A DNA stretch of 49,798 nt from a phage: the sequence record NC_101840.1; one strand, 5' to 3'. The stretch's first letter is position 1. Each line of letters begins with the position of its first letter. The translations under genes were made by a program, and so were the position numbers. The notes beneath the pieces were generated by a model. That model did no database searches. It was not told the origin of the DNA and saw only the letters and a list, made by a program, of their open reading frames with translations. Shown piece after piece: positions 1-44,100 of this stretch.

Positions 1-78
1 GTTTTTAATTAAAAACGCATAGCCGTTAGAGCGCCTCAATCGCATTCTAACGAGCTATTTTTCTGGTAAGGTGATTTA

Positions 79-207
79 ATGGATGAGTACAAACAACCCT
101 CGCAATGGTGCAAAGAGAAGCAGGAGGAAGCACTTGAGCGCGGAGATGTAGAAGAAGCTATGAACTATTTCAAACTTGCGGAAGAATGGAAGGGGAGAGG
201 ATACTGA
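79..207 (+). CDS. hypothetical small protein (42 aa)
   Basis: ATG with AAGGTGA Shine-Dalgarno 6-7 nt upstream; stop overlaps next start (TGATG); below ORF-track size cutoff. Confidence 0.3.
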   Translation: MDEYKQPSQWCKEKQEEALERGDVEEAMNYFKLAEEWKGRGY

Positions 208-437
208 TGTTCGGCATGAACGAGGCGCAATTCAACGCAGCTAAACGCCAGGCTAAAAAGTGCGGCGAGGCAATGAAAGCGGATGTGGAAAAGCGCGGGA
301 AGTATGTTGATGAAGTAATGAAGGGCATCATTGCAGAACACTACCAGCCAATCGCGCCAATGTTGACGATCACTCAATTCATTTGGCTATGTGGTTACTT
401 GCGCGGACGTTGGGGGAACGCTTTCGACAGGGAATGA
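207..437 (+). CDS. hypothetical protein (76 aa)
   Basis: in-frame ATG of track ORF 186..437, overlapping stop of upstream ORF (translational coupling). Confidence 0.4.
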   Translation: MFGMNEAQFNAAKRQAKKCGEAMKADVEKRGKYVDEVMKGIIAEHYQPIAPMLTITQFIWLCGYLRGRWGNAFDRE

Positions 438-599
438 TTGACAACTCTTTCCTGATTGGTTAGCATGGCGTCGTTTACATAAGAGCGGCTTTGTCCGAAC
501 GCGTGACGCGATAGTCACACAACAACGGCGATATGCAGGAGGTTTTTGCAATGCAAAATAATCCGTAAGACGTATCGCCTTTTTTAATGGAGATCCAAA

Positions 600-833
600 A
601 TGATTAAATACAAATTAACCGTTTCTTTCCGTGATACCGTTATTCATCCTTTCTACAATAGCTTTGTTAACAGCTTTACAGTAGAAGCGACAAGTGATCA
701 GCTTGGCGGTGACGAAACTTGCATTTCTATCGGCAATGTTGCTTATCCGATTCACAACATTACCAGCATTAAGCGTGAGGTTGTCGCTGATGAATTACAA
801 AGTGAAGATGACGATCCGGCGAATGGGGCGTAA
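600..833 (+). CDS. hypothetical protein (77 aa)
   Basis: track ORF; GGAG 8 nt upstream of ATG. Confidence 0.4.
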   Translation: MIKYKLTVSFRDTVIHPFYNSFVNSFTVEATSDQLGGDETCISIGNVAYPIHNITSIKREVVADELQSEDDDPANGA

Positions 834-975
834 CTGCCAATCATGCAAACAGGAATATGAATGCGTAGTTGATGCTCTTGATGAACTGGAAGCAGTAGCA
901 AAAGCAAAAGAGCAATCGGGCGCTAATCCTGAAACACATCAATTTTCAATTAATCTTGTGAGGGCTTTACAATGA
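823..975 (+). CDS. hypothetical small Cys-containing protein; start uncertain (track gives GTG at 694)
   Basis: first ATG in frame of track ORF 694..975; contains CxxC; weak RBS. Confidence 0.2.
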   Translation: MGRNCQSCKQEYECVVDALDELEAVAKAKEQSGANPETHQFSINLVRALQ

Positions 976-1196
976 TCGCATTATCTTTCTGCATTGGTTT
1001 TATCATGGCTATCATTATCTTTTCCGTTGTCATGCGCTTTGCTTATAAGTTCGTGATTAATAAAGGTTGGTACGCTTCTGCCATCTGGAGCGAAAAACAA
1101 AAGAAATGGCTTGTACGTGGTCAATACCTGATGATCGGCAGCAAGATCCTAAATTCCATTCGAGCCAAAGATGGAAAAGTAAAATATACAGCTTAA
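972..1196 (+). CDS. small membrane protein (74 aa)
   Basis: track ORF; hydrophobic N-terminal helix; ATGA overlap with upstream stop. Confidence 0.45.
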   Translation: MIALSFCIGFIMAIIIFSVVMRFAYKFVINKGWYASAIWSEKQKKWLVRGQYLMIGSKILNSIRAKDGKVKYTA

Positions 1197-1201
1197 AAAT
1201 T

Positions 1202-1226
1202 ACCCGCCGCACGGCGGGTTTTTTAT
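1202..1226 (+). terminator. rho-independent terminator
   Basis: GC hairpin CCCGCCG-CACG-CGGCGGG followed by T-run. Confidence 0.55.
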
Positions 1227-1237
1227 TGCCCGTTGTT

Positions 1238-1246
1238 TGGTATAAT
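1238..1246 (+). promoter_or_regulatory. extended -10 promoter element TGGTATAAT
   Basis: TGnTATAAT about 30 nt upstream of terminase small subunit start; no clear -35. Confidence 0.3.
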
Positions 1247-1274
1247 CAGGCATCTAACCAAAGGAGGATTAACA

Positions 1275-1802
1275 ATGGCTAAAAACGTTGAGCCTGCTGT
1301 AAAGGCATTAAATTTCAAAGAGTTATATAATAAAACTTATGGCGATATTGTCACGCTAAACAACCGCCACAAGTACACGCCGGAACAGGTTTTTGATATG
1401 GCGATCCGCTATTTCACTTGGGCCGAAGAGAATCACATCCAGGCGGCTGAAACTGCTTCCTTTCAGGGTGACGTGTACGAGAGCAGAGTTTACAAGCCTC
1501 GCGTTTTCACGGTTAACGGATTCAGCTTGTATCTCGGCGTGACTGAGGCTGCCGTAAGCAAATGGCGTAAAGAGCCTGGATTCTGCGATGTGATGGAGTT
1601 TGTTGATAAAGTAATTTACGAGCAAAAATTCCAGCTTGCGGCAAATAACATGATTAATGCTGGATTTATCGGTAAAGAGATCGGCGTAGAGAAGCCAGCA
1701 ACAGTGAGCGTTGAAGCTAGCGCGGCAGCTAATGCAAGCATTGACGCAGTAACTGCCGATGAGGTGAAAGAGGCTGTTATTGATATTCTGGAGCAACTTT
1801 AA
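1275..1802 (+). CDS. terminase small subunit (175 aa)
   Basis: AAGGAGG RBS before ATG 1275 (track ORF 1233..1802 uses an upstream alternative start); immediately precedes and is coupled to large terminase. Confidence 0.55.
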   Translation: MAKNVEPAVKALNFKELYNKTYGDIVTLNNRHKYTPEQVFDMAIRYFTWAEENHIQAAETASFQGDVYESRVYKPRVFTVNGFSLYLGVTEAAVSKWRKEPGFCDVMEFVDKVIYEQKFQLAANNMINAGFIGKEIGVEKPATVSVEASAAANASIDAVTADEVKEAVIDILEQL

Positions 1803-3370
1803 TGATCATATGGGAAGATTTGACGGCGGCGCAAAAGCGAGCCATTAAAGAAATCAGTGAGCATTCATTCGAAAAGATGATCAGAATCTGGTTTCAGTTA
1901 TTGCAGGGGCAAAAATTCCAGAGCAACTGGCATTTTAGCTTATTGTGCAGTGAGGTAGAGAAGATCATCAATGGAGAGTCGCAGAATGTGATTTTCAACA
2001 TTACGCCAGGTAGCGGTAAGACTGAGATTTTCTCAATCCACATGTCACCCTACGCGTCATTGAAAAGTCGGAAGGTGAGAAACCTTAACCTTTCGTTTAG
2101 TGATGGACTTGTCCAGCAAAACAGCAACAGGATAAAGGAGATTATCGGTTCTCCTGAGTGGCAAGAGCTATGGCCAGGAAAACTGGCAAAGGCGAGCGCA
2201 AAAGATCTCATAGTTACGGATGGCGGCAAGGTTAAATTGCAAGTTAACTCACGTTCTATTGGCGGACAGGTAACAGGTTTGCGTGGCGGCTATATGGACG
2301 ATGGTTTTACTGGTATGCTGGTTCTGGACGATCCAGACAAGCCGGATGATATGCTTTCTAAGGTCAAGCGTGAGGCGATCCACATGCGGTTAAAAAACAC
2401 AGTGCGATCGCGTCGAATGAAAGACACTACGCCGATTGTTATGGTGCAACAGCGACTACACGTTAATGATTCCACCTGGTTTATGCTTAATGGCGGGATG
2501 GGTGGTATTGAGTTTAAAGTTGTGAGTATTCCGGCGCTGGTTACGAAAGAATACCGCGAAACGCTTCCTGATTGGTTGAAGCCTGAATTTGATCGTGATG
2601 TGTTGTCAAGTAAGCCAGTGATGATAGATGGCGTTGCTCATTATTCATTTTGGCCTGCGAAGGAAAGCGCGGAGGAATTGCTTGCATTGCGCAATGCAGA
2701 TCCTTATACGTTCGCCAGTCAGTACCAACAGCAACCCATCGCGCTTGGCGGCAACGTGTTTAAAACAGAGTGGTTCCAGTATTACGGCAGCGGCGAAAAA
2801 TGCGCACTTCCTAAACCGGATCGCTTTGAATACACATTTATTACTGGTGATACCGCGCAGAAGGCCGGAGAGCTTAACGACTATTCAGTTTTTTGTTATT
2901 GGGGGATGTATAAGAATCGCGTTTACTTCATTGATGGCATTCGCGGAAAGTGGGAAGCGCCGGATCTTGAATTAAATTTTATTGCCTTCGTTAATCAGTG
3001 CTGGAAGCGCAATAAGGAGTGTGGCAGCTTGCGACGTATCCACATTGAGGATAAGGCCAGCGGCACGGGTTTGATTCAGGGGGCCAAAAAGAAGATCCCG
3101 ATTGATATAAATCCCGTTCAGCGAAGCAACGACAAGGTAACGCGAGCAATGGACGCCGCGCCAGTGATGAGGGCCGGACGTGTGGCACTGCCAGAAAATC
3201 ACCCCATGCTGCCTGAGATACTGGCAGAGGTTGCAGCATTCACTTTTGATGATTCTCATCCCCATGATGATATTGTCGATAATATAGTTGATGCTGTTAA
3301 CGTAGAAATGAATTTGGCAGATGATCCGGTGGCAAGGATGAAAAAGCTGGCAGGTCTACGCAATAAATAG
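1802..3370 (+). CDS. terminase large subunit (522 aa)
   Basis: size, position before portal, Walker-A-like PGSGKTE and C-terminal nuclease-like acidic motifs. Confidence 0.85.
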   Translation: MIIWEDLTAAQKRAIKEISEHSFEKMIRIWFQLLQGQKFQSNWHFSLLCSEVEKIINGESQNVIFNITPGSGKTEIFSIHMSPYASLKSRKVRNLNLSFSDGLVQQNSNRIKEIIGSPEWQELWPGKLAKASAKDLIVTDGGKVKLQVNSRSIGGQVTGLRGGYMDDGFTGMLVLDDPDKPDDMLSKVKREAIHMRLKNTVRSRRMKDTTPIVMVQQRLHVNDSTWFMLNGGMGGIEFKVVSIPALVTKEYRETLPDWLKPEFDRDVLSSKPVMIDGVAHYSFWPAKESAEELLALRNADPYTFASQYQQQPIALGGNVFKTEWFQYYGSGEKCALPKPDRFEYTFITGDTAQKAGELNDYSVFCYWGMYKNRVYFIDGIRGKWEAPDLELNFIAFVNQCWKRNKECGSLRRIHIEDKASGTGLIQGAKKKIPIDINPVQRSNDKVTRAMDAAPVMRAGRVALPENHPMLPEILAEVAAFTFDDSHPHDDIVDNIVDAVNVEMNLADDPVARMKKLAGLRNK

Positions 3371-17037: not shown

Positions 17038-17614
17038 GCTATCTGGTTCCCTGGGGCGTAGATTTGGCGTCTTTCACAAAATGGCGGTTGACTCATACCC
17101 CGAAGCAATACGCGCGTTATCTTCCCAGGTTGAAGGGTTCAAGGACTACATGCAAAGCGAAGTAGGATCGCGAATGAAGTATGCTGTATTCGTTGATGGA
17201 AAAAACGTTGGTCAGCATGATGAAAAATCATGGAAGTGCGCGCGAGAGGTTCGAATAGTTCCTGTTCCAACTGGTTCTAAGTCCGGCGGCCTGTTCAATG
17301 TTGTTTTTGGTGCTGTAATTATGGCTACTGCTTTCATTACTGGCGGTGCAAGCCTGGCGGCTATGGGCGCTTTTGCATCTTCCGCATTTATGATGGGTGG
17401 TGCTATCGCGCTTGGCGGTGTCATGCAAATGATCTCGCCGCAGCAGGGAGGAATGAAACTGCAAAGCCAGTCAGCAGAAAACAAGCCTTCTTACGCTTTC
17501 GGCGGCGCAGTAAATACCACGGCGGCAGGCTATCCGGTTCCTTTGCCATATGGATATAGGACAGTAGGCGGCGCGATCTGGTCGGCTGGCAGCTACGCAG
17601 AGGACAAAGCATAA
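17018..17614 (+). CDS. tail assembly protein (lambda I-like)
   Basis: position after K-like gene; Gly/Ala-rich hydrophobic C-terminal half. Confidence 0.55.
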   Translation: MTLKVIKLSGSLGRRFGVFHKMAVDSYPEAIRALSSQVEGFKDYMQSEVGSRMKYAVFVDGKNVGQHDEKSWKCAREVRIVPVPTGSKSGGLFNVVFGAVIMATAFITGGASLAAMGAFASSAFMMGGAIALGGVMQMISPQQGGMKLQSQSAENKPSYAFGGAVNTTAAGYPVPLPYGYRTVGGAIWSAGSYAEDKA

Positions 17615-17634
17615 ATAGCACAATATGTTAAAGC
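17613..17634 (+). promoter_or_regulatory. conserved junction box variant (AAATAGCACAATATGTTAAAGC)
   Basis: degenerate copy; follows TAA stop of I-like gene; followed by hairpin GCGAAAACGGATTTTCGC. Confidence 0.4.
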
Positions 17635-18229: not shown

Positions 18230-21200
18230 ATGGCTAAATATATGATAAGCGGCAGTAAGGGAGGCGGTCAAAAGCCCTACGTGCCAAAAGAGATGGAAGA
18301 TAACCTGATCTCGATAAACAAGATTAAAGTTTTGCTGGCTGTATCTGATGGCGAGTGCGATCCAGATTTTACGTTGCGTGATCTTTATCTTGATGATGTT
18401 CCGGTTATTGCCAGCGATGGCACTGTTAACTACGAGGGAGTTACGGCTGAATATCGACCAGGCACGCAGACGCAAGATTACATCCAGGGTTTTACTGACA
18501 CATCAAGTGAGGTTACAGTTGCCAGAGATATTACCGGAGACAATCCTTATGTTATTTCTGTTACAAATAAAAATCTATCTGCGGTAAGAATAAAGATCCT
18601 GATGCCAGTAGGCATTAAAACAGAGGATAACGGCGATCTTGTTGGCGTAAGGGTTGAGTATGCCGTAGATATGGCTGTTGATGGCGGTTCTTATAGCGAG
18701 GTTATGAGAGATGTAATTGACGGCAAGACAAGATCAGGATACGACCGCAGCAGAAGGATTGATCTTCCTAAGTTTGATGAGCGCGTTTTAATCCGAGTAA
18801 AGCGACTGACTCCAGACAGCACATCTTCAAAGGTGACTGATAAAATCAAGCTGCAAAGTTACGCTGAGGTTGTTGATGCAAAATTCCGCTATCCTCTGAC
18901 TGGACTTGTATTCGTAGAATTTGACAGCGAATTGTTTCCTACGCAAATCCCTAACATTTCTATAAAAAAGAAATGGAAGATTATTAATGTGCCAAGCAAC
19001 TATGATCCAATATCAAGAGAATATCACGGGTCATGGGATGGGACTTTTAAAAAAGCGTGGTCAAATAATCCTGCTTGGGTTCTTTATGATCTGGTGACAA
19101 ATCAGCGTTATGGACTTGATCAGCGAGAGTTAGGAATACAGATCGACAAGTGGAGCTTATACGAGGCGGGCGTTTACTGCGATCAGAAAGTTCCAGACGG
19201 TAAAGGCGGCACTGAGCCTCGCTACCTATGCGATGTGGTGATTCAGAATCAAGTTGAGGCTTATCAGCTAATCCGTGACATTTGCTCAATCTTTCGCGGA
19301 ATGAGTTTTTGGAATGGTGAGAGCTTATCAATCGTGATTGATAAGCCGCGCGATCCATCATACGTGTTTACTAATGAAAACGTCATCAACGGTGATTTTC
19401 AGTACACAAACGCAAGCGAAAAAAGCATGTACACGCAGTGTAACGTGACGTTTGACGACGAACAAAACATGTATCAGCAGGACGTAGAGGGGGTTTTTGA
19501 TACTGAGGCGGCATTACGATTTGGATACAACCCAACAAGCATTACAGCGATCGGGTGTACGCGCAGGAGCGAAGCGAATCGTCGCGGTCGTTGGGTTTTG
19601 AAAACAAACCTTAGAAGCACTACTGTAAACTTTGCTACCGGACTAGAGGGGATGATTCCATCAATAGGTGATGTTATTGCTATCGCTGATAATTTTCAGA
19701 GTAGCAACCTAACGTTAAACCTATCGGGCCGAGTAATGGAAGTTTCAGGGCTGCAGGTTTTCGTTCCGTTTAAGGTTGATGCTCGCCCTGGTGATTTTAT
19801 TATCATCAACAAGCCGGACGGCAAGCCAGTTAAGCGCACGATCTCAAAGGTTAGCGCAGACGGAAAAACCATTGAGTTAAATATTGGATTTGGTTTTGAT
19901 GTTAAGCCTGATACTGTTTTTGCGATTGACCGTACTGATCTTGCGTTGCAGCAATACGTTGTGACAACCATCAGCAAGGGTGATGACGAAAACGAGTTTA
20001 CCTATTCAATCACGGCTGTAGAGTACGATCCGAACAAATACGACGAGATTGATTATGGAGTAAACATTGATGACAGACCGACTTCAATTGTTCAGCCTGA
20101 CGTGATGGCAGCGCCTGAGAACGTTAAGATCTCATCTTATTCTCGCGTCGTGCAGGGTGTTAGCGTTGAGACTATGGTTGTTTCATGGGATAAGGTTCCT
20201 TACGCATCGCTTTATGAAATGCAGTGGCGAAAAGGTGATGGTAACTGGCTGAATACGCCGCAGACCGCTAACAAAGAGATAGAGGTAGAAGGGATTTACT
20301 CTGGCAACTACCAAGTAAGGGTGAGATCCGTTTCTGCAAGCGGTAACGCTTCCCCGTGGTCAAAGATTGCAACCGCCACTCTGACAGGTAAAGTTGGCGA
20401 GCCAGGAGCGCCGATTAATCTTACGGCTTCTGATAATGAAGTTTTTGGCATTCGTGTCAAATGGGGTATGCCGGAAGGATCAGGCGATACGGCTTACATT
20501 GAGCTTCACCAATCGCCAGACGGAACGGTTGAAAACTCAAGTCTGCTTACGCTGATTCCATATCCTCAATATGAGTATTGGCATAGCACGTTACCAGCGG
20601 GGCAAGTTGTATGGTATAGAATCCGCAGCGTTGACAGAATAGGCAACGTTTCAAGCTGGACTGACTTTGTTCGCGGCATGGCGTCAGATGACGTTGAATC
20701 TGTTTTGGGCGACATTCTGGACAAGATTTTTGATACAGAAGCTGGTCAAGAAATCAAAGAGAACGCCATAGACAGTGCCAATAAAATCAAAGACCAGGCG
20801 CAATCAATCATACAGAACGCGTTGGCAAATGATGCAGATGTGAAGTGGACGCGAGTGCAAAACGGAAAGCGCAAGGCTGAATATGGTCATGCTCTTGAGC
20901 TTATCGCCAATGAAACAGAAGCGCGCGTAACTCAAATCGAAGAGTTAAGGGCTTCAATTGATGGCGAGATAACATCAAGCATCAAGACAGTGCAGGAGGC
21001 AATTGCCACTGAATCAGAGACGCGAGCGACTCAAATTCAGCAGCTTGATTCTAAATTCACAAAAGAAATCGACGGCGTGCGCAAGGATACTTCTGCAAGC
21101 ATTAGCGATGTAAGGCAGACAATCACTAACGAGTCAGAAGCGCGCGCTCAGGCCGTTCAGCAGCTTGACGCTAAGTTCACGAAAGAGATAAACGACCTTG

Positions 21201-21808
21201 ACGGAGTTATCAAAACAGAAGTCGAGGCTAACATCTCAGAAGTGAAACAGGCGATCGCCAATGAGACAGAGGCAAGGGTTCAGGCTGACCAGGCATTAAC
21301 AGCACGATTTGGCGACGTTGAATCTGCATTGGTTGAAAAGTTGGATTCTTGGGCGAGCGTTGATTCAGTTGGCGCTAAATACGCTATGAAACTTGGCCTT
21401 ACTTACAAAGGCCAGCAATACAGCGCAGGAATGGTGATGCAGCTTTCGCAGGGTTCATCCGGCCTTATCTCGCAAATTTTGTTTGATGCTAACAGGTTCG
21501 CCATTATGACTAGCTCTACTGGAGGGACTTTTACTTTGCCTTTCGTGGTTGAGAATAATCAGGTTTTCATTAATAGTCTTTTGGTGAAGAACGGTTCAAT
21601 CACTAATGCGATGATTGGTAATGTGATTCAGTCAAACAACTTTGTTCAAAACCAGCAAGGATGGAGGCTTGATAAAAACGGAATCTTTGAGAATTACGGA
21701 TCAACGCCAGGAGAAGGAGCTACTAAATTCACCAATGAGGGATTGAAGGTAAAAGATGCAAACGGAGTATTGAGGGTTGAAGTCGGAAGGATTACCGGAA
21801 GCTGGTAA
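18230..21808 (+). CDS. central tail fibre / host specificity protein (lambda J-like, about 1190 aa)
   Basis: length, position after I-like gene, fibronectin-III-like middle region, repeat-rich C-terminus; start from internal ATG of track ORF 18179. Confidence 0.85.
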   Translation: MAKYMISGSKGGGQKPYVPKEMEDNLISINKIKVLLAVSDGECDPDFTLRDLYLDDVPVIASDGTVNYEGVTAEYRPGTQTQDYIQGFTDTSSEVTVARDITGDNPYVISVTNKNLSAVRIKILMPVGIKTEDNGDLVGVRVEYAVDMAVDGGSYSEVMRDVIDGKTRSGYDRSRRIDLPKFDERVLIRVKRLTPDSTSSKVTDKIKLQSYAEVVDAKFRYPLTGLVFVEFDSELFPTQIPNISIKKKWKIINVPSNYDPISREYHGSWDGTFKKAWSNNPAWVLYDLVTNQRYGLDQRELGIQIDKWSLYEAGVYCDQKVPDGKGGTEPRYLCDVVIQNQVEAYQLIRDICSIFRGMSFWNGESLSIVIDKPRDPSYVFTNENVINGDFQYTNASEKSMYTQCNVTFDDEQNMYQQDVEGVFDTEAALRFGYNPTSITAIGCTRRSEANRRGRWVLKTNLRSTTVNFATGLEGMIPSIGDVIAIADNFQSSNLTLNLSGRVMEVSGLQVFVPFKVDARPGDFIIINKPDGKPVKRTISKVSADGKTIELNIGFGFDVKPDTVFAIDRTDLALQQYVVTTISKGDDENEFTYSITAVEYDPNKYDEIDYGVNIDDRPTSIVQPDVMAAPENVKISSYSRVVQGVSVETMVVSWDKVPYASLYEMQWRKGDGNWLNTPQTANKEIEVEGIYSGNYQVRVRSVSASGNASPWSKIATATLTGKVGEPGAPINLTASDNEVFGIRVKWGMPEGSGDTAYIELHQSPDGTVENSSLLTLIPYPQYEYWHSTLPAGQVVWYRIRSVDRIGNVSSWTDFVRGMASDDVESVLGDILDKIFDTEAGQEIKENAIDSANKIKDQAQSIIQNALANDADVKWTRVQNGKRKAEYGHALELIANETEARVTQIEELRASIDGEITSSIKTVQEAIATESETRATQIQQLDSKFTKEIDGVRKDTSASISDVRQTITNESEARAQAVQQLDAKFTKEINDLDGVIKTEVEANISEVKQAIANETEARVQADQALTARFGDVESALVEKLDSWASVDSVGAKYAMKLGLTYKGQQYSAGMVMQLSQGSSGLISQILFDANRFAIMTSSTGGTFTLPFVVENNQVFINSLLVKNGSITNAMIGNVIQSNNFVQNQQGWRLDKNGIFENYGSTPGEGATKFTNEGLKVKDANGVLRVEVGRITGSW
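20898..21312 (+). repeat. four imperfect roughly 40-codon repeats in the C-terminal part of the J-like gene
   Basis: peptide repeats ETEARV-TQIEEL / ESETRA-TQIQQL-DSKFTKEIDGV / ESEARA-QAVQQL-DAKFTKEINDLDGV / ETEARV-QADQAL. Confidence 0.4.
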
Positions 21809-23005: not shown

Positions 23006-23054
23006 TACTCCTTAGTTGTTGTTGAATGCAACTATACACGATCTTGGGCATCGC

Positions 23055-23076
23055 GTTTAGCAAAAAGTGCTATTTG
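23055..23076 (-). promoter_or_regulatory. conserved junction box, sense to leftward lipoprotein operon
   Basis: GTTTAGCAAAAAGTGCTATTTG on + strand; TATAGT hexamer about 21 nt downstream on minus strand. Confidence 0.5.
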
Positions 23077-23442
23077 TTATTTTTTGTTTTCCGGTGTTAT
23101 CGAATTTAAGACGGCGTAAATTTAGCGCAAAATTTAGACAACATAAGATCAATAAACAATCAATAAAATAGATATATACATATAAAATCAATAGTTTATT
23201 TATGTATGTATGTATATTTGTTTTTTCTTGTTATCTGCGTTTCTTGTGGTTTTGGTTGTTTGTGGTGATTTTTCTTTCTGAGTATCTGTATGTGCCATCA
23301 TTCATGTGTATGTATATAATCCGGCGTATCTGAGAGAGCATGGGAACAAGAAAAATAACACACATTAATCATTAACTTATGAGTCAAATCTGTTTTCTTG
23401 CCATCTGAGAACGTTTAGAAAACAGAAAAAACAAAACAGCTA

Positions 23443-23470
23443 TTGACTAAATCAACCAAATGGCTACAAT
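23443..23470 (+). promoter_or_regulatory. sigma70-type promoter (TTGACT-N16-TACAAT) for recombination operon
   Basis: near-consensus hexamers with 16-nt spacer about 30 nt upstream of ATG 23501. Confidence 0.5.
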
Positions 23471-23500
23471 GCACGCATAAAGCAACAAGGAGCATTAAAG

Positions 23501-24556
23501 ATGAGTGATTTTAACGCCTACACTAGCGAAGAAATGAGCAACGAGCTTTATCATGATCCTAACGCGTGGACGGCTGAATATGTCAGCGGTTCCAGCCTAG
23601 CGGAGATTTACAGCACTTGCCCGGCGTACTGGAAGTACAAGCCGCGCCAGGAAACTAAAGCACTTGTTTTCGGTACGCAGTCGCATACCAACTTTGAAAG
23701 CAAGGAGCTATTCGAAAAAACATATCGCCGCGCACCGTCGCAGGATGATTTTAAAGATCTGATCACTAGTCAAACGGCGTTAGCATCAAAGCTGAAATCT
23801 TTTGGCCTGAAAGGTACAACGGGCAAACAATACCCTGAATTACTGGAAATGCTGTACAAGTGCGGCGAGGATCTCAATGTGTGGTGGCTTATCGAAATGA
23901 TGGCAGAATGCCAGGCCGCAGCGGACGGAGTGCAGTTAATAGACGCTAAAGATTATGATGCCTGTGTAGCGATGCGGCGCGTACTTGAGGCCATACCGGA
24001 GCATAACGCTTGCATGAACAGCCCAACCGCGCAGCGTGAAATGTCAATATTTGGGATCATCAACGGCGTAAAAGTAAAAGTGCGTCTTGATCACGTTGAC
24101 GTAAACAAGGATGTAAAGGCAACAATCATTAACGGTTACGACGAAAAAGGCAGGCCGATTTATGAAGAAGTCACCTATCCAGAAGCGGTGATTATCACTG
24201 ACTACAAAACAACGGTTAGCGCAAATCCGGTTGACTTCCAGCGCCTGGCTTACAATCACGGCTATTATCTTAAAATGGCTTTGCAACATGACTTATTCAA
24301 AAAGGCTTATCCAGACGAGGAAAGGCCAGTAATTGTAAGATTGCTTGCGCAGGAGAAGAAAGAGCCTTACTTGCCGCTTGCTTTCCGCATGAATATTGAG
24401 CAATTGAAGATCGGGCGCATCCAGTACATGAGCGTGATCAACAAGTTCAACGTTTGCCAGCAGTTAGACGAATGGCCTTCGTATGCAAACGGGCAACCGG
24501 AAATTGATCTTGATACTCCTGATTGGGTTCGTGCTCAATTCAGGCATTATCTTTGA
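23501..24556 (+). CDS. PD-(D/E)XK exonuclease (RecE/YqaJ-like recombination exonuclease)
   Basis: RLDHVD ... ITDYKT catalytic-type motifs; precedes Erf-like and SSB genes. Confidence 0.6.
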   Translation: MSDFNAYTSEEMSNELYHDPNAWTAEYVSGSSLAEIYSTCPAYWKYKPRQETKALVFGTQSHTNFESKELFEKTYRRAPSQDDFKDLITSQTALASKLKSFGLKGTTGKQYPELLEMLYKCGEDLNVWWLIEMMAECQAAADGVQLIDAKDYDACVAMRRVLEAIPEHNACMNSPTAQREMSIFGIINGVKVKVRLDHVDVNKDVKATIINGYDEKGRPIYEEVTYPEAVIITDYKTTVSANPVDFQRLAYNHGYYLKMALQHDLFKKAYPDEERPVIVRLLAQEKKEPYLPLAFRMNIEQLKIGRIQYMSVINKFNVCQQLDEWPSYANGQPEIDLDTPDWVRAQFRHYL

Positions 24557-26076: not shown

Positions 26077-26581
26077 AGTCTAACGTGGTTGGTTTGTTTA
26101 CCAGTGCCGCTACAACCGCTTTTAGCTCGTCAATTTCTTTTCTCATCTCATCGTTTTCCGCTTTCAGTTTCTTAACGTGGTGAATCAGTGGAACAGTGAG
26201 GCGCTCATACATAACGCCTTCCGCCACCATGCCATTACTTGAAGCAATGGCAGGATCTTCTCCTTCTTGCAGCGGTCGCCAGTGAACGTACTCCGGCGCA
26301 ATTTCTCCAACCTCTTCCGCGATTAGCCCGTACCATCCCCAATCTTTACGGTCGCTTTCACAGGTTGACCGATACCACACAGGACGCATTTCAAGCATCA
26401 GATCCGCATATTCATCAATAACCGATTCTACGCTGCTCTTATAACGAGAAGAGGAAGTGGAGCGTAAAACTTGCGACACTCCAGCATTTGGATCAAGCCA
26501 TAAGTTTGCTGATTGAGCGGTTGTGTTAATATTAAATAAATAAAATGCATCGTTACCAGTTAGGGGGGTAAAAACTCCCAC
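26075..26581 (-). CDS. tail-fibre C-terminal intramolecular chaperone domain (peptidase S74-like); probably the 3' part of a frameshifted fibre gene
   Basis: SSSRYK, MRPVWYR and GLIAEEVGEIAPE motifs of self-cleaving fibre chaperone domains; GTG start and overlap with upstream ORF. Confidence 0.55.
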   Translation of the reverse strand: MGVFTPLTGNDAFYLFNINTTAQSANLWLDPNAGVSQVLRSTSSSRYKSSVESVIDEYADLMLEMRPVWYRSTCESDRKDWGWYGLIAEEVGEIAPEYVHWRPLQEGEDPAIASSNGMVAEGVMYERLTVPLIHHVKKLKAENDEMRKEIDELKAVVAALVNKPTTLD

Positions 26582-26813
26582 TATACCTTCCGCTACCCAA
26601 CTCGGATGATAGATCAGTTTGTTTTAGATACGGTTTCAACTTATTGTCAACATCAGCAGTTGATGCTTTTCCTGCAACATCCTGTTTTAGTGTCGAAACG
26701 TCATTTTTCAGCTTCGTTATATCACCAGGAATAGTAGCAACATCCTGTTTTAGTGTTGAAACGTCATTTTTCAGCTTCGTTATATCACTAGGTATAACAG
26801 TGACTGTAGCCAT
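26553..26813 (-). CDS. tail-fibre segment with perfect 20-aa tandem repeat (86 aa); likely 5' part of the same fibre gene
   Basis: AAGGAG RBS; IPxDITKLKNDVSTLKQDVA repeated twice; ends at stop just after a T5/C6 homopolymer. Confidence 0.5.
   Translation of the reverse strand: MATVTVIPSDITKLKNDVSTLKQDVATIPGDITKLKNDVSTLKQDVAGKASTADVDNKLKPYLKQTDLSSELGSGRYSGSFYPPNW
26676..26795. repeat. two tandem 60-bp direct repeats inside the fibre ORF
   Basis: near-identical 60-mers on the + strand with 2 mismatches. Confidence 0.7.
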
Positions 26814-27104: not shown

Positions 27105-29059
27105 TAAACAATTTCCCCCAATTGATGATCTGTTAGCGCCTTGTGCCATATACGGAAGTTTCTAACGTGCCCGAAAAGATGGCGTTCGCCTGTACTTGTT
27201 TGTCCGCCAATCCTTATAGTAGCCGTTGATACTATATATCTCCATTCCGTTTTTGTTTCGCTTGACATTCTGGCATTACTTACACAACAAGTATTGTAAT
27301 CACTCTTTACTCTCATTCCTATGATCATCTTTTTTAGTTTCGCATTCTCGTTAACCCTTCTGTTTGATTTACCTATATCGCAATAAGGGAATCCATCAGC
27401 ATCGCCTTCGGCAGACCCGAAAGCAAGAATAATTCCCGCACCAGATTGATGACCTCCAGTATCGAAAACACGAGGCGCAGCGTTTGGCGTTATACTCCAG
27501 TTTTTATGAGCTTCCACAAGCACTGTAAACGGCAAATTGTAAAGGTTGTTTTTTATTGGCAATGTAACCATATCGCTTGCCCTTGTTGTCGGACTTTTAT
27601 TAGTTATAATGAATGATGAAGCGCAAGATCCAACCTCTACTTGAGGAGTTGTTAAATCCATAAAGCTATTTTCATCAAAAACTTCTCCTTGTTTATTAAC
27701 GACCTGTATTACCCCCCTAATGTAAGTTGATTCATCAGTAACTTTGTAAACTATTTCTGCAAAAATCCATTCCCCGTCTATGGTAGCGTTCTTTAGCACT
27801 ATGTTTTTTGCGTCAACTCCAGAAGTTGCCACCCCTAAGTTATCGCAATCAATAATAGCAGAAGCAACAGAAGATAAAGGATCTCCCTTGTCAAATCTTG
27901 CTGCAAATCTTACATTTTTCCCCTTAGCCCTAAAAGATATTGTAACTCCATCACCCTTTACAACTGCAATCTTATTTGCAGTAGGTCCAGCTATAACAGT
28001 GTAAGAGCCTACGCCACCTAAATATTCCCCTGGTTTAAATGTTGCATACTTAAACCCCCTTTCATCAGTCTTAGTTTCACCTCTTTCTAATCCTGGATTT
28101 GGATTCCATGATTCAGGCTTATTTGAATTTACAAAATAGTTTGTTCTCTGCCCTTCAATCAAAAGACCATCCTTTTCAAATCTAGGTTCATCAATAGCAG
28201 CATCAGTAAGCAACCCAGACTTATTAATGTAAGTAGCGGTTGATGCACGTTTAAACTTAACAATCTTGTCACCTGGCATCGTGATCTCATCATCACCTAT
28301 GACAATCTTTTTGTATGACGGCGAGAATCCGGTGATCATATCCAGGGAATCATTAAATGGTATCCACACGTCAGGTAGAGGCTGCAATAAATCTTTGTAA
28401 GGTTCTGCGGCCTGTTTTGCGTATTCCTCCGCTTGATCTCGCGCACTTTCAGCGCCTGCCTTTGCGGTGTTCGCAGCATCACGCGCAGTTTCAGCGCCTT
28501 TTCTTGCAGTTTCAGCGCCAGTCTTTGCAGTGTTTGCAGCGTCGCGCGCGGATTCAGCGGCAGCCTTTGCAGTGTCAGCACCTTTCTTGCTATTCTTTGC
28601 ATTTGTTGCGCTTGTCTTTGCGTTATTCTCGCTAGTTTTAGCTGCCTTCTGGCTTGCTGCGGCTGCGTCAGCATTTGTCTTTACGTCTTCCTGGATCTTC
28701 TGTAGCTTATCCCAATCAAAATCCTTGATGATCTCAATAAATCCAGCAAACTCCGATTCCTTCCCCTGGTAATAACGCAACGTTTCCGCTACGTCTTGCG
28801 CAAGACCGTCAACCGTTAACGAGTCATGAAGCAAGATCAGGTAATTTGTCTTCTGTACTACCGCGCCTCCAGTAGTAATTGCGCGAATGCTTGTATCGCT
28901 AATCACTTCTGTAATCACAGCAGCTTGCAAAGGTTGAGCAAGAAAGAAAATAGTTGCACCTGGGCGAATCAAGGTTAATTGCTCACGCCATTTTGTACCG
29001 TAACCAGTTACATAACCTTGCGCGTCCATAGACGCTTGGCCTTGTCTGTAAATCGCCAT
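27104..29059 (-). CDS. side tail fibre protein (about 651 aa)
   Basis: N-terminal Ala/Thr/Lys-rich fibre repeats; GGAGG RBS before ATG 29059 (track start 29083 is GTG). Confidence 0.7.
   Translation of the reverse strand: MAIYRQGQASMDAQGYVTGYGTKWREQLTLIRPGATIFFLAQPLQAAVITEVISDTSIRAITTGGAVVQKTNYLILLHDSLTVDGLAQDVAETLRYYQGKESEFAGFIEIIKDFDWDKLQKIQEDVKTNADAAAASQKAAKTSENNAKTSATNAKNSKKGADTAKAAAESARDAANTAKTGAETARKGAETARDAANTAKAGAESARDQAEEYAKQAAEPYKDLLQPLPDVWIPFNDSLDMITGFSPSYKKIVIGDDEITMPGDKIVKFKRASTATYINKSGLLTDAAIDEPRFEKDGLLIEGQRTNYFVNSNKPESWNPNPGLERGETKTDERGFKYATFKPGEYLGGVGSYTVIAGPTANKIAVVKGDGVTISFRAKGKNVRFAARFDKGDPLSSVASAIIDCDNLGVATSGVDAKNIVLKNATIDGEWIFAEIVYKVTDESTYIRGVIQVVNKQGEVFDENSFMDLTTPQVEVGSCASSFIITNKSPTTRASDMVTLPIKNNLYNLPFTVLVEAHKNWSITPNAAPRVFDTGGHQSGAGIILAFGSAEGDADGFPYCDIGKSNRRVNENAKLKKMIIGMRVKSDYNTCCVSNARMSSETKTEWRYIVSTATIRIGGQTSTGERHLFGHVRNFRIWHKALTDHQLGEIV
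28430..28640. repeat. degenerate short repeats encoding Ala/Thr/Lys-rich fibre segment
   Basis: reiterated GCNGAA/ACNGCNAAA-type codon blocks. Confidence 0.4.
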
Positions 29060-29074
29060 TTGTAAAATCCTCCT

Positions 29075-29096
29075 AAATAGCACTTTTTGCTAATGA
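29075..29096 (+). promoter_or_regulatory. conserved junction box, inverted relative to the leftward fibre gene
   Basis: AAATAGCACTTTTTGCTAATGA about 16 nt upstream of the fibre gene start on the opposite strand. Confidence 0.45.
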
Positions 29097-29165: not shown

Positions 29166-30095
29166 TTATAGCAGTGATTCGGGCTTGTAGAGTTTTCTTT
29201 CTACTCCCTGTTTAAAATTATCGTTAACAGGCATCATTATGTCAAGCCCTCTTTCCTCTGCCGCGATTATCACATCACGATCATCTTTCCGGCAGACTAC
29301 GCGCATTCTTCTTTCTCCTTTATATCTATGCGCAACCATTTCAAGATTTGAAGGAGTAAAACAGGCCCACACCTCTTGACCAGTTGATAAATGAACATGC
29401 TGAGAATCAACCCAATCAAGGCACAAATAGATCGTCTTATCTGTACTACCTGTTTTAACAACAGATCCGCGCGTGTAGTCGCGAGCTAAAAACCAATCCT
29501 TTCCATCCTCATCAATGAAAAGCACGTTACACATTTCATCATCCAGCCCGTCATCATGCACAAGGTGACAAGGTAGCGCGTGAATGTATCGACCATCCTT
29601 GACGCCGCAATCATAATGACAATCTTCCGGCGGATATATCCCCTCATAAACGCTTAAAGGTGTGCGATCGAATTTTAATGTTTTTGCCATCACTTTTTCG
29701 CAACATTCATGACTTGCCTGTTTCCCGAACGAGTAACCAGAAGAGCGCGAAGCGCGTTTGTTTGCTCTGATCCTGTAATCTTGTGGCACTTTTCCGAGGA
29801 AGCGGCCCAAAATGTTGATGGCCTCGCTGTAAGGTTCGCCAGTTAATTTCATTAACCAACCGATCCCCGTGTCGTTGCCGCACACGTTGCAGATCGCGCC
29901 GCCGTCGCCCTCTTCATTTAGCTTATCAGTCCATCTAAAACGATCCTTACCGCCGCAGTGTGGGCAAGGTTGATGCTTTTTGTTGAAAACATCGCTATGC
30001 AGTCCGCAAATGCTTTGTAGTGCTTCACGCCATAACCCCTTCATATATGGCAAAACATCTTCTTTCTGATAGGTCATAAAGTTTTCAGTATTCAT
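29166..30095 (-). CDS. DNA primase (zinc-ribbon plus TOPRIM-like)
   Basis: CPHCGGKDRFRW zinc-ribbon motif, acidic DEDGKD TOPRIM-like motif; GAGG RBS before ATG 30095 (track start 30173). Confidence 0.7.
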   Translation of the reverse strand: MNTENFMTYQKEDVLPYMKGLWREALQSICGLHSDVFNKKHQPCPHCGGKDRFRWTDKLNEEGDGGAICNVCGNDTGIGWLMKLTGEPYSEAINILGRFLGKVPQDYRIRANKRASRSSGYSFGKQASHECCEKVMAKTLKFDRTPLSVYEGIYPPEDCHYDCGVKDGRYIHALPCHLVHDDGLDDEMCNVLFIDEDGKDWFLARDYTRGSVVKTGSTDKTIYLCLDWVDSQHVHLSTGQEVWACFTPSNLEMVAHRYKGERRMRVVCRKDDRDVIIAAEERGLDIMMPVNDNFKQGVERKLYKPESLL

Positions 30096-30106
30096 GGAAA
30101 ACCTCA

Positions 30107-30143: not shown

Positions 30144-30150
30144 CTTATCA

Positions 30151-43497: not shown

Positions 43498-43519
43498 GTT
43501 TTAACAAAAAGTGCTATTT
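43498..43519 (-). promoter_or_regulatory. conserved junction box heading the leftward early operon
   Basis: on minus strand: AAATAGCACTTTTTGTTAAAAC. Confidence 0.55.
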
Positions 43520-44072
43520 GACAGTTAGCACCAGGATTGTGATCGAAATAATCAAAAGTAATCATTCGTAATCAAATCTCATCAAAATGATGATTGCCTT
43601 TGCAAATTTGATGAGAAAAGTAATCACGTTTAATCATTGGTTGCAGGGGAGATAGTGAAACCTTCCCCTCTTGCCTCACTTTTCCGCCTGGCTGTCAGCG
43701 GTTGTTGTCTTTTGTTCACCCCTGTTACCGATTTCAGGCGGCGTGTTTCCGCGCGGTTTTCCGGTGTAGCGAAAACGAAAAAAACAAAAAAATCCCTCTA
43801 TAATACATTGAAAATAAAGATTATTTATTTATATATATCTATAATGTTTTCTTTTTGTTCTCACTGTTACAGTGCTTTTTGTTGGGTGTGGTGTGGTTGT
43901 GTGTTGGTATATATGGATAGTTGCGCGCGCGGCGGATTGCATATGTATATATACTTTTTCCGGCGGATTGCGTTAACAGCGTGAACAGAAAAATAACAGC
44001 CCTGAAATCAATAACTTGCGCATGATTTTGTAGTTTTTTGATATTGGTAACGTTTTGAATACAACAAAAACA

Positions 44073-44100
44073 TTGACACGCACCAAATAGCTTTTATAAT
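44073..44100 (+). promoter_or_regulatory. consensus sigma70 promoter (TTGACA-N16-TATAAT) for rightward early operon
   Basis: perfect -35 and -10 hexamers about 30 nt upstream of ATG 44132. Confidence 0.6.

What the first reader, a model, noticed from the sequence alone, without database searches (positions are those of the whole stretch)
23006..23500. Two long AT-rich intergenic control regions with simple repeats and palindromes at divergent operon boundaries
Region 23006-23500 contains (TATG)n-like runs, GT-rich TGTGG/TTGG repeats, a box copy and a sigma70-like promoter. Region 43439-44131 (690 bp) contains GTAATCA repeats, a 9-bp-arm inverted repeat (CTCATCAAA ... TTTGATGAG), a duplicated CGGCGGATTGC, similar GT-rich and TATATA tracts, and a perfect TTGACA-N16-TATAAT promoter. 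Their size and repeat content are unusual for a compact phage genome and suggest replication origins or multi-operator regulatory hubs.
Basis: partly seen in the sequence, partly recalled or inferred. Interest (0 to 1): 0.5.

Follow-up and report, generated by a model that had tools for sequence, protein, structure and literature searches.

The report
Duplicated origin-like control module, plus pac
The two long gaps in this T1-like coliphage are copies of one conserved 360-base non-coding module, with short protein-binding repeats around the genome's easiest-to-melt DNA and a strong early promoter, so it is the best candidate yet for the unknown replication origin of T1-like phages; the second gap also holds the probable DNA-packaging start site.

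Summary
The window is a Warwickvirus (Drexlerviridae, T1-like).

New here: the two gaps are paralogous. A profile built only from orthologs of 23076-23436 finds 43707-44074 at full length (E=2.5e-37) and nothing else in four whole genomes.

The module is non-coding and shows no convincing RNA structure. It is about as conserved between genera as the neighbouring exonuclease gene.

It carries arrays of short repeats whose sequence differs by lineage (TGTTMNC/GRAACAR here, GTGTAACA in T1). These flank the two least stable duplex stretches of the genome. It also has an IHF-like site and ends in a near-consensus sigma-70 promoter.

The part unique to region B (43545-43640: TAATCA repeats and the inverted repeat) aligns with the genome ends deposited for T1 and TLS. 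TLS's start matches its published restriction map. This is the probable pac site.

The "box" is the known 21-nt Drexlerviridae repeat.

Best reading: a duplicated iteron/unwinding-element module, probably an origin coupled to early promoters (about 0.45). The main rival is a pure early-promoter control region (about 0.3). The protein that binds the repeats was not identified.

The parts
23055..23075 (-). 21-nt Drexlerviridae 'box' (AAATAGCACTTTTTGCTAAAC), about 70 nt upstream of the leftward cor-like gene that starts at 23005
   Evidence: Repeat family. It matches the published consensus aaATAGCACnnnTTGnTAAAA. The flanking gene matches the Cor phrog.
23031..23038 (-). Extended -10-like TGTATAGT downstream of the box (leftward promoter, inferred)
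   Evidence: Read from the sequence. The block AACTATACACGATC is conserved in orthologs.
23076..23436 (.). Module copy A: conserved non-coding, roughly dyad-symmetric iteron / AT-core module
   Evidence: About 70% identical over its full length in other genera. As conserved as exoVIII DNA. No period-3 signal. Profile hit and reverse-strand self-hit.
23083..23101 (+). Left T-block with TGTT-type repeats (TTTGTTTTCCGGTGTTATC); repeated at 23217-23235
   Evidence: Direct repeats D2/D3. Conserved block TTTTGTTc..TGTTc.C in both paralog families.
23129..23228 (.). AT/TATA core of copy A, including (TATG)n at 23197-23215 and a strict IHF core match at 23186-23198
   Evidence: Least stable 100-bp duplex stretch of the genome: -102.9 kcal/mol against a mean of -136.4, sd 7.0. 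TRF. IHF pattern. Imperfect palindrome I1.
23239..23274 (+). GT-rich tract (TGTGG/TTGG repeats)
   Evidence: Kept as a GT-rich block in both paralog families, with TGGTG conserved.
23342..23378 (+). Right-arm AACA-type repeats (GGGAACAAGAAAAATAACAC), followed by the IHF-like AATCATTAACTTA at 23366-23378
   Evidence: WATCA-N5-TTR is kept at this module position in 16 of 18 orthologs.
23417..23439 (+). AGAAAAC x3.3, an A-rich/AACAG repeat directly upstream of the -35 (UP-like, or promoter-proximal repeats)
   Evidence: TRF. T1-type phages carry their own repeat type (TTACA) at the same position.
23443..23470 (+). Sigma-70 promoter TTGACT-16-TACAAT for the exoVIII-Erf-SSB operon (start codon 23501)
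   Evidence: TTGACTAAAyGC...GCTAyAATG is conserved across the family, including T1. Gene identities.
43499..43519 (-). 21-nt box, a perfect consensus copy (AAATAGCACTTTTTGTTAAAA), 81 nt upstream of the leftward gene that starts at 43438
43545..43640 (.). Probable pac (packaging initiation) region. It holds TAATCA at 43549, 43559, 43569, 43621 and 43631 (10-bp phased), TGATTG at 43591, and the inverted repeat 43577-43586/43607-43616.
   Evidence: The T1 and TLS record starts align here, about 30 columns apart. TLS position 1 fits the published restriction map. Hexamer enrichment is 6 against 0.31 expected, with equivalent clusters at the T1/TLS ends. TRF period 10.
43646..43668 (.). Conserved GGGGAGATAGTGAAACCTTCCCC element (imperfect hairpin) between the pac region and the module. 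Its GTGAAAC is replaced by the T1-type repeat GTGTTAC in T1.
   Evidence: Alignment of region B orthologs.
43704..44076 (.). Module copy B, the paralog of 23076-23436 in the same orientation
   Evidence: nhmmer E=2.5e-37 with a profile built only from region A orthologs. Orthologous B copies were found in W011D, TLS, BEBK14, PMBT35, JK16 and vojen. Pairwise score 78 against shuffles at 22 +/- 3 and 35 +/- 8.
43703..43728 (+). Left T-block of copy B (TGTTCAC at 43713, TGTTACC at 43723); repeated at 43845-43870
   Evidence: Direct repeat D2, spacing 142..
43772..43871 (.). AT/TATA core of copy B, including the widely conserved CTATAATACATTGAAAATAAAG...TTATTTATTTATATATATCTATA
   Evidence: Second least stable 100-bp stretch; 43799-43848 is the least stable 50-bp stretch. 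This core is the part that matches the most Drexlerviridae records.
43880..43908 (+). GT-rich tract (TGTTGGTTGTG x2.6)
43930..43971 (+). CGGCGGATTGC x2 bracketing a second TATA block (43941-43954)
   Evidence: The '(TATA)n then CCGGCG' arrangement is conserved in both paralog families.
43972..44018 (+). Right-arm repeats GTTAACAG, GTGAACAG and AATAACAG, followed by a strict IHF core consensus AATCAATAACTTG at 44006-44018
44073..44100 (+). Consensus sigma-70 promoter TTGACA-16-TATAAT for the rightward block of small genes (start codon 44132)
   Evidence: Conserved in B orthologs. The downstream protein matches phrog_4841 from residue 2.

Best explanation
Both gaps are conserved cis-acting control regions built from the same parts.

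Shown:
- Each gap has a leftward promoter marked by the known 21-nt box.
- Each has a rightward near-consensus sigma-70 promoter. One drives the exoVIII/Erf/SSB recombination operon; the other drives the block of small genes that follows the left genome end of T1/TLS.
- Between the two promoters lies one copy of a ~360-bp paralogous, non-coding module.
- The module has arrays of 7-9-nt repeats (TGTTMNC on the left and in the middle, GRAACAR on the right), with a few direct repeats about 10 bp apart.
- These repeats flank a TATA-rich core that is the least stable duplex DNA of the genome. An IHF-like site is also present, and repeats run right up to the -35.

Inferred:
- The repeats are binding sites for a phage-encoded protein, because their sequence changes between phage lineages that share the same host genera.
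- The module is a nucleoprotein assembly site where that protein, helped by IHF bending and by negative supercoiling from the flanking promoters, opens the TATA core.
- The phage's MCM-like helicase (37969-39549) and its primase (29166-30173) can then load there. On this reading it is a duplicated replication origin that also feeds back on the adjacent early promoter.

Region B additionally holds the packaging start site (pac) at about 43545-43640. This assignment rests on orthology with the T1 and TLS genome ends. Phased TAATCA/TGATTR hexamers there would bind small terminase around the cut.
For: Paralogy:
- A profile from region A orthologs hits region B at full length (E=2.5e-37). It also hits B orthologs in six other phages, and nothing else in four whole genomes.
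- The relation is detectable in T1 as well (E=8.5e-5).

Constraint:
- Module identity between genera is 66-74%, against 73-78% for exoVIII DNA.
- It is not coding: period-3 power is 0.21 against 62.9 for the control, and no ORF is conserved.

Repeats:
- 17 against 2.6 expected.
- TGTTMNC: 8 against 1.5 expected.
- T1 uses TGTAACA/GTGTAAC: 5 of 6 genome copies lie in its two regions (p about 3e-11).
- TLS and W011D use GTGAACA. Other lineages use GTAATC or GTAAC/TATAC.

Unwinding element: the two cores are the two least stable duplex stretches, 4-5 sd from the genome mean.

Dyad symmetry: reverse-strand self-hits, E=3e-8 in the window and also in vojen, TLS and W011D.

IHF-like sites.

Replication proteins are encoded:
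- An MCM-like DUF3987 helicase with a C-terminal winged helix (pLDDT 88; literature).
- A Zn-ribbon primase.

No origin has been reported for T1-like phages.

pac:
- TLS position 1 (AGATTT), HindIII at 5876 and EcoRV at 2733 fit the published map.
- The T1 record opens at the aligned place and annotates a 2.8-kb terminal repeat.
- PhageTerm placed the end of SU57 in the equivalent untranslated region.
- Hexamer clusters sit at all three ends.
Against: - No experiment or marker-frequency data place initiation here.
- GC skew follows gene orientation and carries no origin signal.
- There are no DnaA boxes. The module cores are GATC-free in a genome that is otherwise enriched in GATC.
- The repeat-binding protein was not identified. 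The recognition helices of the helicase winged-helix domain and of the Cro-like HTH protein do not track the repeat type.
- The module is always fused at fixed distance to a strong promoter, with repeats next to the -35. A purely transcriptional role explains that equally well.
- In this Warwickvirus the repeats are more degenerate than in TLS or T1.
- The pac assignment is by orthology and record coordinates, not data from this phage. The inverted repeat is not conserved in JK16.
Confidence: 0.45

Rival explanations
1. Pure early-promoter control region. The repeats would be operators or enhancer sites for a phage regulator, for example the Cro-like HTH protein at 30151-30627. Together with IHF and the flexible TATA core they would loop the DNA to activate, and later shut off, two of the few consensus sigma-70 promoters. 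Replication would start elsewhere or by recombination.
For: - The module is always attached, at fixed distance and orientation, to a conserved near-consensus promoter, and the duplication included that promoter.
- Repeats lie directly upstream of the -35 in every lineage.
- An IHF-like site sits at about -95 to -105.
- One T1-type repeat lies in the regulator/helicase intergenic region of T1, at 36497.
Against: - Roughly 300 bp of far-upstream sequence kept at coding-level conservation is far more than known promoter-upstream regions need.
- The regulator's own promoter region carries no such repeat in TLS or in this window.
- The HTH recognition helix does not track the repeat type.
- This reading does not explain why the cores are the genome's least stable DNA.
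Confidence: 0.3
2. Packaging element. The shared module would be an extended small-terminase platform flanking pac, in the way bent DNA flanks other pac sites. The copy upstream of exoVIII would be a secondary or vestigial pac.
For: - Module B lies immediately right of the mapped T1/TLS ends.
- An older prediction, cited, took the ATATA repeats of T1 for pac.
- One record (Enterobacter phage BHUENT2) opens about 100 bp from the region A ortholog.
Against: - Region A lacks the TAATCA/TGATTR cluster and the sequences that align with the T1/TLS ends.
- Module A is conserved as strongly as B.
- Rtp-like phages are reported to lack the ATATA repeats while still packaging by headful.
- Copy A keeps its place in front of exoVIII whatever lies to its left.
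Confidence: 0.08
3. The modules encode a non-coding RNA or a small hydrophobic peptide, for example the 43-codon ORF within 23202-23333.
For: - The T/G-rich tracts give hydrophobic ORFs, and some database records annotate small genes here.
- Two of the four folds have z-scores near -2.4.
Against: - No period-3 substitution pattern, and the ORFs differ between genera.
- No Rfam match at the gathering threshold or at E<=1.
- Fold z-scores are weak and fall on opposite strands in the two copies.
- No convincing internal promoter.
Confidence: 0.04

Closest known systems
Two-origin arrangement of Bacillus phage SPP1 (oriL and oriR bound by the G38P replisome organiser), recalled from my own knowledge and not retrieved here
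   Same: A virulent pac-type siphophage with two distant, sequence-related non-coding or partly coding regions. Each combines initiator-binding repeats with an AT-rich stretch.
   Different: No initiator has been identified here. The helicase is MCM-like (DUF3987), not DnaB-type. Each copy is fused to a strong sigma-70 promoter and is roughly dyad-symmetric. No experimental origin data exist.
Satellite phage P4 ori/crr bound by the alpha protein (octamer repeats, which I recall as TGTTCACC), from my own knowledge
   Same: Two separate cis regions carry the same short repeats. The exact word TGTTCACC occurs at 43713, and TGTTCAC/GTGAACA is the repeat of TLS and W011D. The phage primase has the Zn-ribbon shared with P4 alpha and T7 gp4.
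   Different: Primase, helicase and any origin-binding function are separate proteins here. Sequence search of solved structures gave no significant match for the helicase or the primase. A Foldseek search of the helicase model listed only MCM-type chains among its top 50 matches. The repeat match is a single 8-mer and could be coincidence.
pac sites of T1 and TLS as published or deposited (T1 RefSeq record; TLS paper PMC11447400)
   Same: Region B is the ortholog of the gap in which both records open. TLS position 1 fits the mapped pac-HindIII (5.9 kb) and EcoRV (2.7 kb) fragments. ATGATGATTG-like and TGATTR motifs are shared.
   Different: Nothing was measured for this phage. The TLS assignment to AGATTT was made by analogy with P22, and this window reads AAATTT at that place.
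Phage P1 pac (hexamer repeats on both sides of the cut, plus an IHF site), from my own knowledge
   Same: Short hexamers (TAATCA/TGATTR here) lie three on one side and two on the other of a central ~40-bp region, phased at 10 bp.
   Different: The hexamers here carry no GATC, so Dam control as in P1 is not expected. The terminase is P22-like by annotation. pac lies about 7 kb from the terminase genes.
21-nt intergenic repeat of Drexlerviridae (aaATAGCACnnnTTGnTAAAA)
   Same: Both regions hold one copy, oriented with the leftward genes and 70-81 nt upstream of the start codon, as described for TLS.
   Different: None; this part is already described, and its function is still unknown.

Membership tests
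Iteron-type replication origin | Cluster of short repeated binding sites for an initiator | tested here: met
   TGTT/AACA-type words: 17 against 2.6 expected. Lineage-specific variants are concentrated in both regions of T1, TLS and W011D.
Iteron-type replication origin | Adjacent AT-rich DNA unwinding element | tested here: met
   The cores are the two least stable 50-bp and 100-bp duplex stretches of the 49.8-kb genome.
Iteron-type replication origin | Replication actually initiates there, and a cognate initiator binds the repeats | not testable with these tools
   No marker-frequency or binding data exist. Comparison of the candidate proteins (helicase winged helix, Cro-like HTH) with repeat type was uninformative.
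Iteron-type replication origin | Host-factor sites often present (DnaA boxes, IHF, GATC clusters) | tested here: inconclusive
   No DnaA box and no GATC cluster. IHF core consensus is present at conserved positions. None of these is obligatory.
pac site of a headful-packaging phage | The first packaging cut, i.e. the physical genome end, maps to the site | not testable with these tools
   Met only by orthology. The T1 and TLS records open at the aligned position, and the TLS start fits its restriction map. There are no data for this phage.
pac site of a headful-packaging phage | Repeated short motifs for small-terminase binding around the cut | tested here: met
   TAATCA/TGATTR: 6 in 140 bp against 0.31 expected, with 10-bp phasing. 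Equivalent clusters sit at the T1 and TLS ends.
Sigma-70 promoter | -35 and -10 hexamers at 16-18 bp spacing, placed upstream of a gene and conserved | tested here: met
   TTGACT-16-TACAAT and TTGACA-16-TATAAT, conserved in orthologs. Activity was not measured.
21-nt Drexlerviridae intergenic repeat | Match to aaATAGCACnnnTTGnTAAAA, oriented with transcription, about 76 nt before a start codon | tested here: met
   23055-23075 and 43499-43519 on the minus strand, 70 and 81 nt from the start codons.
Structured non-coding RNA | Match to a known family, or a stable conserved fold on one strand | tested here: not met
   No Rfam match. Fold z-scores are -2.3, -1.0, -0.9 and -2.4, inconsistent between the two copies.
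Protein-coding gene | Conserved reading frame with codon-periodic substitution | tested here: not met
   Period-3 power is 0.21 against 62.9 for exoVIII. ORFs are not shared between genera.

The most novel reading that the evidence does not exclude
T1-like phages would replicate from two paralogous, dyad-symmetric repeat/unwinding-element origins about 20 kb apart. Each origin would be fused to one of the genome's few consensus sigma-70 early promoters, and one would abut pac. A single, still unidentified phage protein that reads lineage-specific 7-9-nt repeats would then couple early transcription, origin firing by an MCM-like helicase, and the start of packaging.
Probability: 0.3. Interest if true: 0.65.

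Novelty: new member of a known kind. Interest (0 to 1): 0.5.

Why it matters
T1-like phages are common laboratory and fermentation contaminants and are candidates for phage therapy. Two genome papers nevertheless state that no origin could be found for them.

A precisely delimited two-copy module gives a concrete target for three experiments:
- marker-frequency sequencing;
- plasmid-amplification assays;
- protein pull-downs.

The module also offers defined cis elements (origin, pac, strong early promoters) for engineering these phages.

Finally, it corrects an old guess that the TATA repeats are the pac site. They belong to the duplicated module, while the mapped ends lie in a separate hexamer cluster.

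Tried and rejected
- Rfam at the gathering threshold on the whole window and at E<=1 on both regions gave nothing meaningful.
- RNA folds of both strands of both copies gave weak, inconsistent z-scores.
- Coding potential is absent: no period-3 signal and no shared ORF.
- There are no DnaA boxes. GATC is enriched genome-wide but absent from the module cores.
- Cumulative GC skew only mirrors gene orientation.
- I looked for a satellite, plasmid or prophage carrying region B. None was found in complete E. coli genomes or in PLSDB plasmids.
- I tried to name the repeat-binding protein by comparing repeat type with the helicase winged helix and with the Cro-like HTH across lineages. No correlation emerged. 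Sequence search of solved structures was uninformative.
- Hexamer inspection for extra promoters inside the module found no conserved -35/-10 pair. The family-wide CTnTATAATA has no -35 partner.
- A Chi-like or RecA-loading role for the GT-rich tract was considered and dropped. The orientation is wrong for an end at pac, and T1 lacks the tract.
- The Rtp genome paper (Wietzorrek 2006), which discusses T1 pac, is not in the held library.
- A protein-based search for region B orthologs returned only two loci, because the flanking gene is variable.
Full report
**Identity of the window.** The window is a complete or near-complete genome of a T1-like siphophage. Both regions are 98-99.9% identical to Escherichia phages tuinn, swan01 and relatives. 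JK16, of the genus Warwickvirus (Drexlerviridae, Tempevirinae), matches region A at 99% but diverges in region B (82% over two thirds of it). Region A lies between a leftward Cor-like lipoprotein gene, which starts at 23005, and the rightward exonuclease VIII / Erf / SSB operon, which starts at 23501. Region B lies between two blocks of small genes of unknown function that diverge from 43438 and 44132.

**Check of the observation.** Every listed feature is present at the stated place:
- (TATG)4.8 at 23197-23215;
- the GT-rich tract at 23239-23274;
- a box copy at 23055-23075;
- TTGACT-16-TACAAT at 23443-23470;
- GTAATCA at 43558, 43568 and 43620;
- a perfect 10-bp inverted repeat at 43577-43586 / 43607-43616, and CGGCGGATTGC twice;
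- a 12-of-12 TTGACA-16-TATAAT at 44073-44100.

Promoter-like hexamer pairs as a class are no more frequent than in shuffles, so their weight comes from conservation. The other apparent gaps in the window hold small ORFs, which I read as genes. In T1, TLS and W011D the same two positions are the largest intergenic gaps.

**What was already known.** The box is the 21-nt repeat aaATAGCACnnnTTGnTAAAA described for TLS, T1, Rtp and Rogue1. It is oriented with transcription, lies about 76 nt before start codons, and has no known function. The window holds about 17 copies. The two copies in the finding point leftward, 70 and 81 nt from the leftward start codons. The same paper, and the SU57 paper, state that no replication origin could be recognised in these phages.

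**The two regions are paralogous.**
- A pairwise alignment first suggested it: local score 78, against 22 +/- 3 for mononucleotide shuffles and 35 +/- 8 for shuffles that keep local composition.
- The decisive test used a profile HMM built only from 18 Tempevirinae orthologs of 23076-23436, with the promoter excluded.
- That profile finds window 43707-44074 over its full length at E=2.5e-37.
- It also finds the equivalent region of W011D (2e-33), TLS (3e-28), BEBK14, PMBT35, JK16 and vojen, and nothing else in four whole genomes.
- A profile from T1-group orthologs finds region B of T1 at E=8.5e-5. The duplication therefore predates the split of Tempevirinae and Tunavirinae.
- Both copies have the same orientation, and the duplication includes the downstream promoter.
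- JK16 carries a further partial copy.

**Nature of the module: non-coding and strongly constrained.**
- Between genera it is 66-74% identical, against 73-78% for the adjacent exoVIII coding DNA. It aligns end to end in Hanrivervirus, Changchunvirus and a Hafnia phage in which the left-hand neighbour is a tail gene rather than cor.
- Substitutions show no codon periodicity: power at 1/3 is 0.21 times the mean, against 62.9 for exoVIII. ORFs differ from genus to genus.
- Rfam finds nothing. Single-strand folds give z-scores of -2.3, -1.0, -0.9 and -2.4, with the better strand differing between the copies.

**Anatomy of the module.** A consensus of both paralog families reads as follows:
1. a T-block with two TGTT(C/A) sites about 10 bp apart;
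2. a short GC-containing block;
3. an A-rich block;
4. a TATA-rich core;
5. a second copy of the T-block about 142 bp after the first;
6. a GT-rich tract;
7. a second TATA block followed by CCGGCG;
8. three (G)AACA(G) sites about 10 bp apart;
9. a WATCA-N5-TTR element;
10. TTTTGT and AACGTT;
11. further AACAG repeats abutting the -35.

The left half resembles the reverse complement of the right half. Reverse-strand self-hits have E=3e-8 in the window and recur in vojen, TLS and W011D. The module is therefore roughly dyad-symmetric about the TATA core.

**The repeats are concentrated here and differ by lineage.**
- Counts in this window are 17 against 2.6 expected, and 8 against 1.5 for TGTTMNC.
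- In T1 the word is TGTAACA/GTGTAAC. Five of its six genome copies lie in the two regions (p about 3e-11).
- In TLS and W011D the word is GTGAACA: 4 of 8 and 3 of 7 genome copies (positions).
- Three further lineages use GTAATC, GTAAC(A) or GTAAC/TATAC at the same positions.
- These phages share host genera, so a repeat that changes with the phage argues for a phage-encoded binding protein. This step is inference.

**The cores are the easiest DNA in the genome to melt.** With nearest-neighbour energies, the least stable 50-bp stretches are 43799-43848 (-47.1 kcal/mol) and 23167-23216 (-48.5), against a genome mean of -68.2 (sd 4.6). The same two places lead at 100 bp.

**IHF-like sites.** The strict IHF core consensus WATCAANNNNTTR occurs five times in the window, which is no more than chance. 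Two of the five lie in the modules, at 23186 and 44006. A relaxed form holds a fixed module position in 16 of 18 region A orthologs.

**Region B has an extra part, and it is probably pac.**
- The 160 bp between the box and module B (43545-43640, plus a conserved GGGGAGATAGTGAAACC element at 43646-43668) has no counterpart in region A.
- The T1 RefSeq record opens inside the orthologous gap and annotates 1..2800 as a repeat region.
- The TLS record also opens inside this gap. Its first bases are AGATTT, its first HindIII site is at 5876 and its first EcoRV site is at 2733. These match the published mapping: pac about 5,882 bp from HindIII, a 2.7-kb EcoRV fragment, and pac assigned to AGATTT.
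- In a multiple alignment of eight region B orthologs the two record starts fall about 30 columns apart, opposite window 43590-43615. That is the centre of the inverted repeat: window AAATGATGATTGCCTTTGC|AAATTTGATGAG against TLS AGATGATGATTGATGTGTG|AGATTTTGTGATTG.
- TAATCA/TGATTR hexamers are enriched there, 6 against 0.31 expected, with 10-bp phasing. Equivalent clusters surround the T1 and TLS starts.
- The SU57 authors likewise placed the PhageTerm end in this untranslated region.
- According to a secondary source, an older prediction took the ATATA repeats of T1 for pac. The present analysis puts those repeats in the duplicated module, not in the end-proximal cluster.
- The inverted repeat itself is not kept in JK16, so the hexamers are the better candidates for function.

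**Promoters.** TTGACTAAAyGC...GCTAyAATG in front of exoVIII is conserved across all 28 representative loci, including the T1 group. The region B promoter is conserved in most orthologs. [quoted passage not shown] These are therefore likely the main promoters that unmodified host polymerase recognises early. This is inference; no transcript data were found.

**Trans-acting candidates.**
- The phage encodes a Zn-ribbon primase (29166-30173, minus strand).
- Directly upstream of it lies a Cro/YdaS-like HTH protein (30151-30627, minus strand).
- There is an SNF2/ResIII helicase (30715-32712).
- There is a DUF3987 protein (37969-39549, minus strand).
- A model of the DUF3987 protein (pLDDT 88, pTM 0.86) matches MCM subunits by Foldseek and ends in a helix-strand-helix-helix-hairpin winged helix. 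This agrees with the published assignment of DUF3987 to MCM-like replicative helicases that carry a C-terminal winged helix and with measured 5'-3' helicase activity of a family member.
- Neither the winged helix nor the HTH recognition helix varies in step with the repeat type across lineages. The binder is unidentified.

**Interpretation.** These points are shown:
- two homologous, strongly constrained, non-coding modules;
- repeat arrays;
- the least stable DNA in the genome;
- conserved flanking promoters;
- a separate hexamer cluster at the position of the T1/TLS ends.

Inferred as the most likely mechanism (about 0.45): the module is an iteron-plus-unwinding-element origin present in two copies. 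A phage protein, aided by IHF and by the negative supercoiling behind the flanking promoters, opens it for loading of the MCM-like helicase and the primase. The same protein may also modulate the adjacent promoter through the -35-proximal repeats.

The main rival (about 0.3) is that the module only controls the two early promoters. The fixed linkage to the promoter and the promoter-proximal repeats fit that reading as well. It explains less well the roughly 300 bp of coding-level conservation far upstream and the extreme duplex instability.

A packaging role for the shared module (about 0.08) is unlikely, because region A lacks the end-proximal motifs. RNA or peptide products (about 0.04) are disfavoured by the tests above.

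**Comparison with known systems.** The following resemblances are recalled, not tested. The arrangement works like the paired origins of SPP1 (oriL/oriR) or the ori/crr pair of P4, and like iteron origins in general. The pac part resembles P1 pac in having hexamers on both sides of the cut. Membership in 'iteron origin' is met for repeats and for the unwinding element. It could not be tested for the defining property, which is initiation at the site. The box and the pac location are already in the literature. To my knowledge, and within the literature I could search, three points have not been described: the paralogy of the two gaps, the lineage-specific repeats, and the re-assignment of the TATA repeats.

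**Verdict.** I rate it a new member of a known kind, of moderate interest, because it turns the unknown origin of T1-like phages into a directly testable proposal with exact coordinates.

Noticed in passing
window 3363-3384, 11734-11761, 17611-17632, 29073-29094, 30638-30683, 33124-33172, 34194-34242, 37434-37461, 39596-39623, 40270-40297, 42187-42214, 44858-44880, 46308-46330, 47628-47676, 48935-48991: About 15 further copies of the 21-nt box. Several are followed by a GC-rich hairpin and then (C/T)ATAAT about 21-23 nt after the TTGnTA, which is too far for that hexamer to act as a -35. The copies at 11734 and 29073 point against the local gene direction.
   Followed up: partly
window 23031-23043 and 43474-43486: Both leftward box promoters share GATCG(T/G)G-TA(T/C)A(G/T)T. 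A Dam site therefore sits directly upstream of the -10-like hexamer, and it is conserved in orthologs.
   Followed up: no
window, whole: GATC is strongly over-represented: 305 sites against 180 +/- 12 in shuffles. This fits the phage's own Dam methylase. The two module cores (23151-23554 and 43545-44131) contain none.
   Followed up: partly
window 37969-39549 (-): The DUF3987 protein models confidently (pLDDT 88) as an MCM-like AAA+ helicase. It has a small N-terminal helical domain and a C-terminal winged helix, and is the likely replicative helicase.
   Followed up: yes
window 30628-30714: The 87-bp divergent gap between the Cro-like HTH gene and the SNF2-type helicase gene is the third least stable duplex stretch of the genome. 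It holds a degenerate box.
   Followed up: partly
L057 (Shigella phage JK16) 1480-1695: A third, partial copy of the module (profile positions 11-233, E=7e-18). It overlaps the end of, and extends beyond, a small gene to the right of region B.
   Followed up: no
window 26674-26796: A 63-bp tandem duplication, two copies at 95% identity, inside the 86-codon minus-strand ORF 26553-26813.
   Followed up: no
window 28436-28582 and 20903-21278: In-frame 21/42-bp repeats inside the 659-codon minus-strand ORF (probable tail fibre), and repeats spaced 99-132 bp inside the 1209-codon tail protein gene.
   Followed up: no
Enterobacter phage BHUENT2 record PV844613.1, 111-274: This record opens about 100 bp from its region A ortholog, whereas many other records open in region B. 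It could be an arbitrary start or a different end.
   Followed up: no
window 30151-30627 (-) and orthologs in T1, TLS, W011D: The Cro-like HTH protein has a very conserved basic N-terminal segment (STGEIDKRTINGNNGTRRGKDKKPR), kept nearly intact (22-23 of 25 residues) in T1, TLS and W011D and identical in W011D. TLS has a long lysine/glutamate-rich C-terminal insertion.
   Followed up: no
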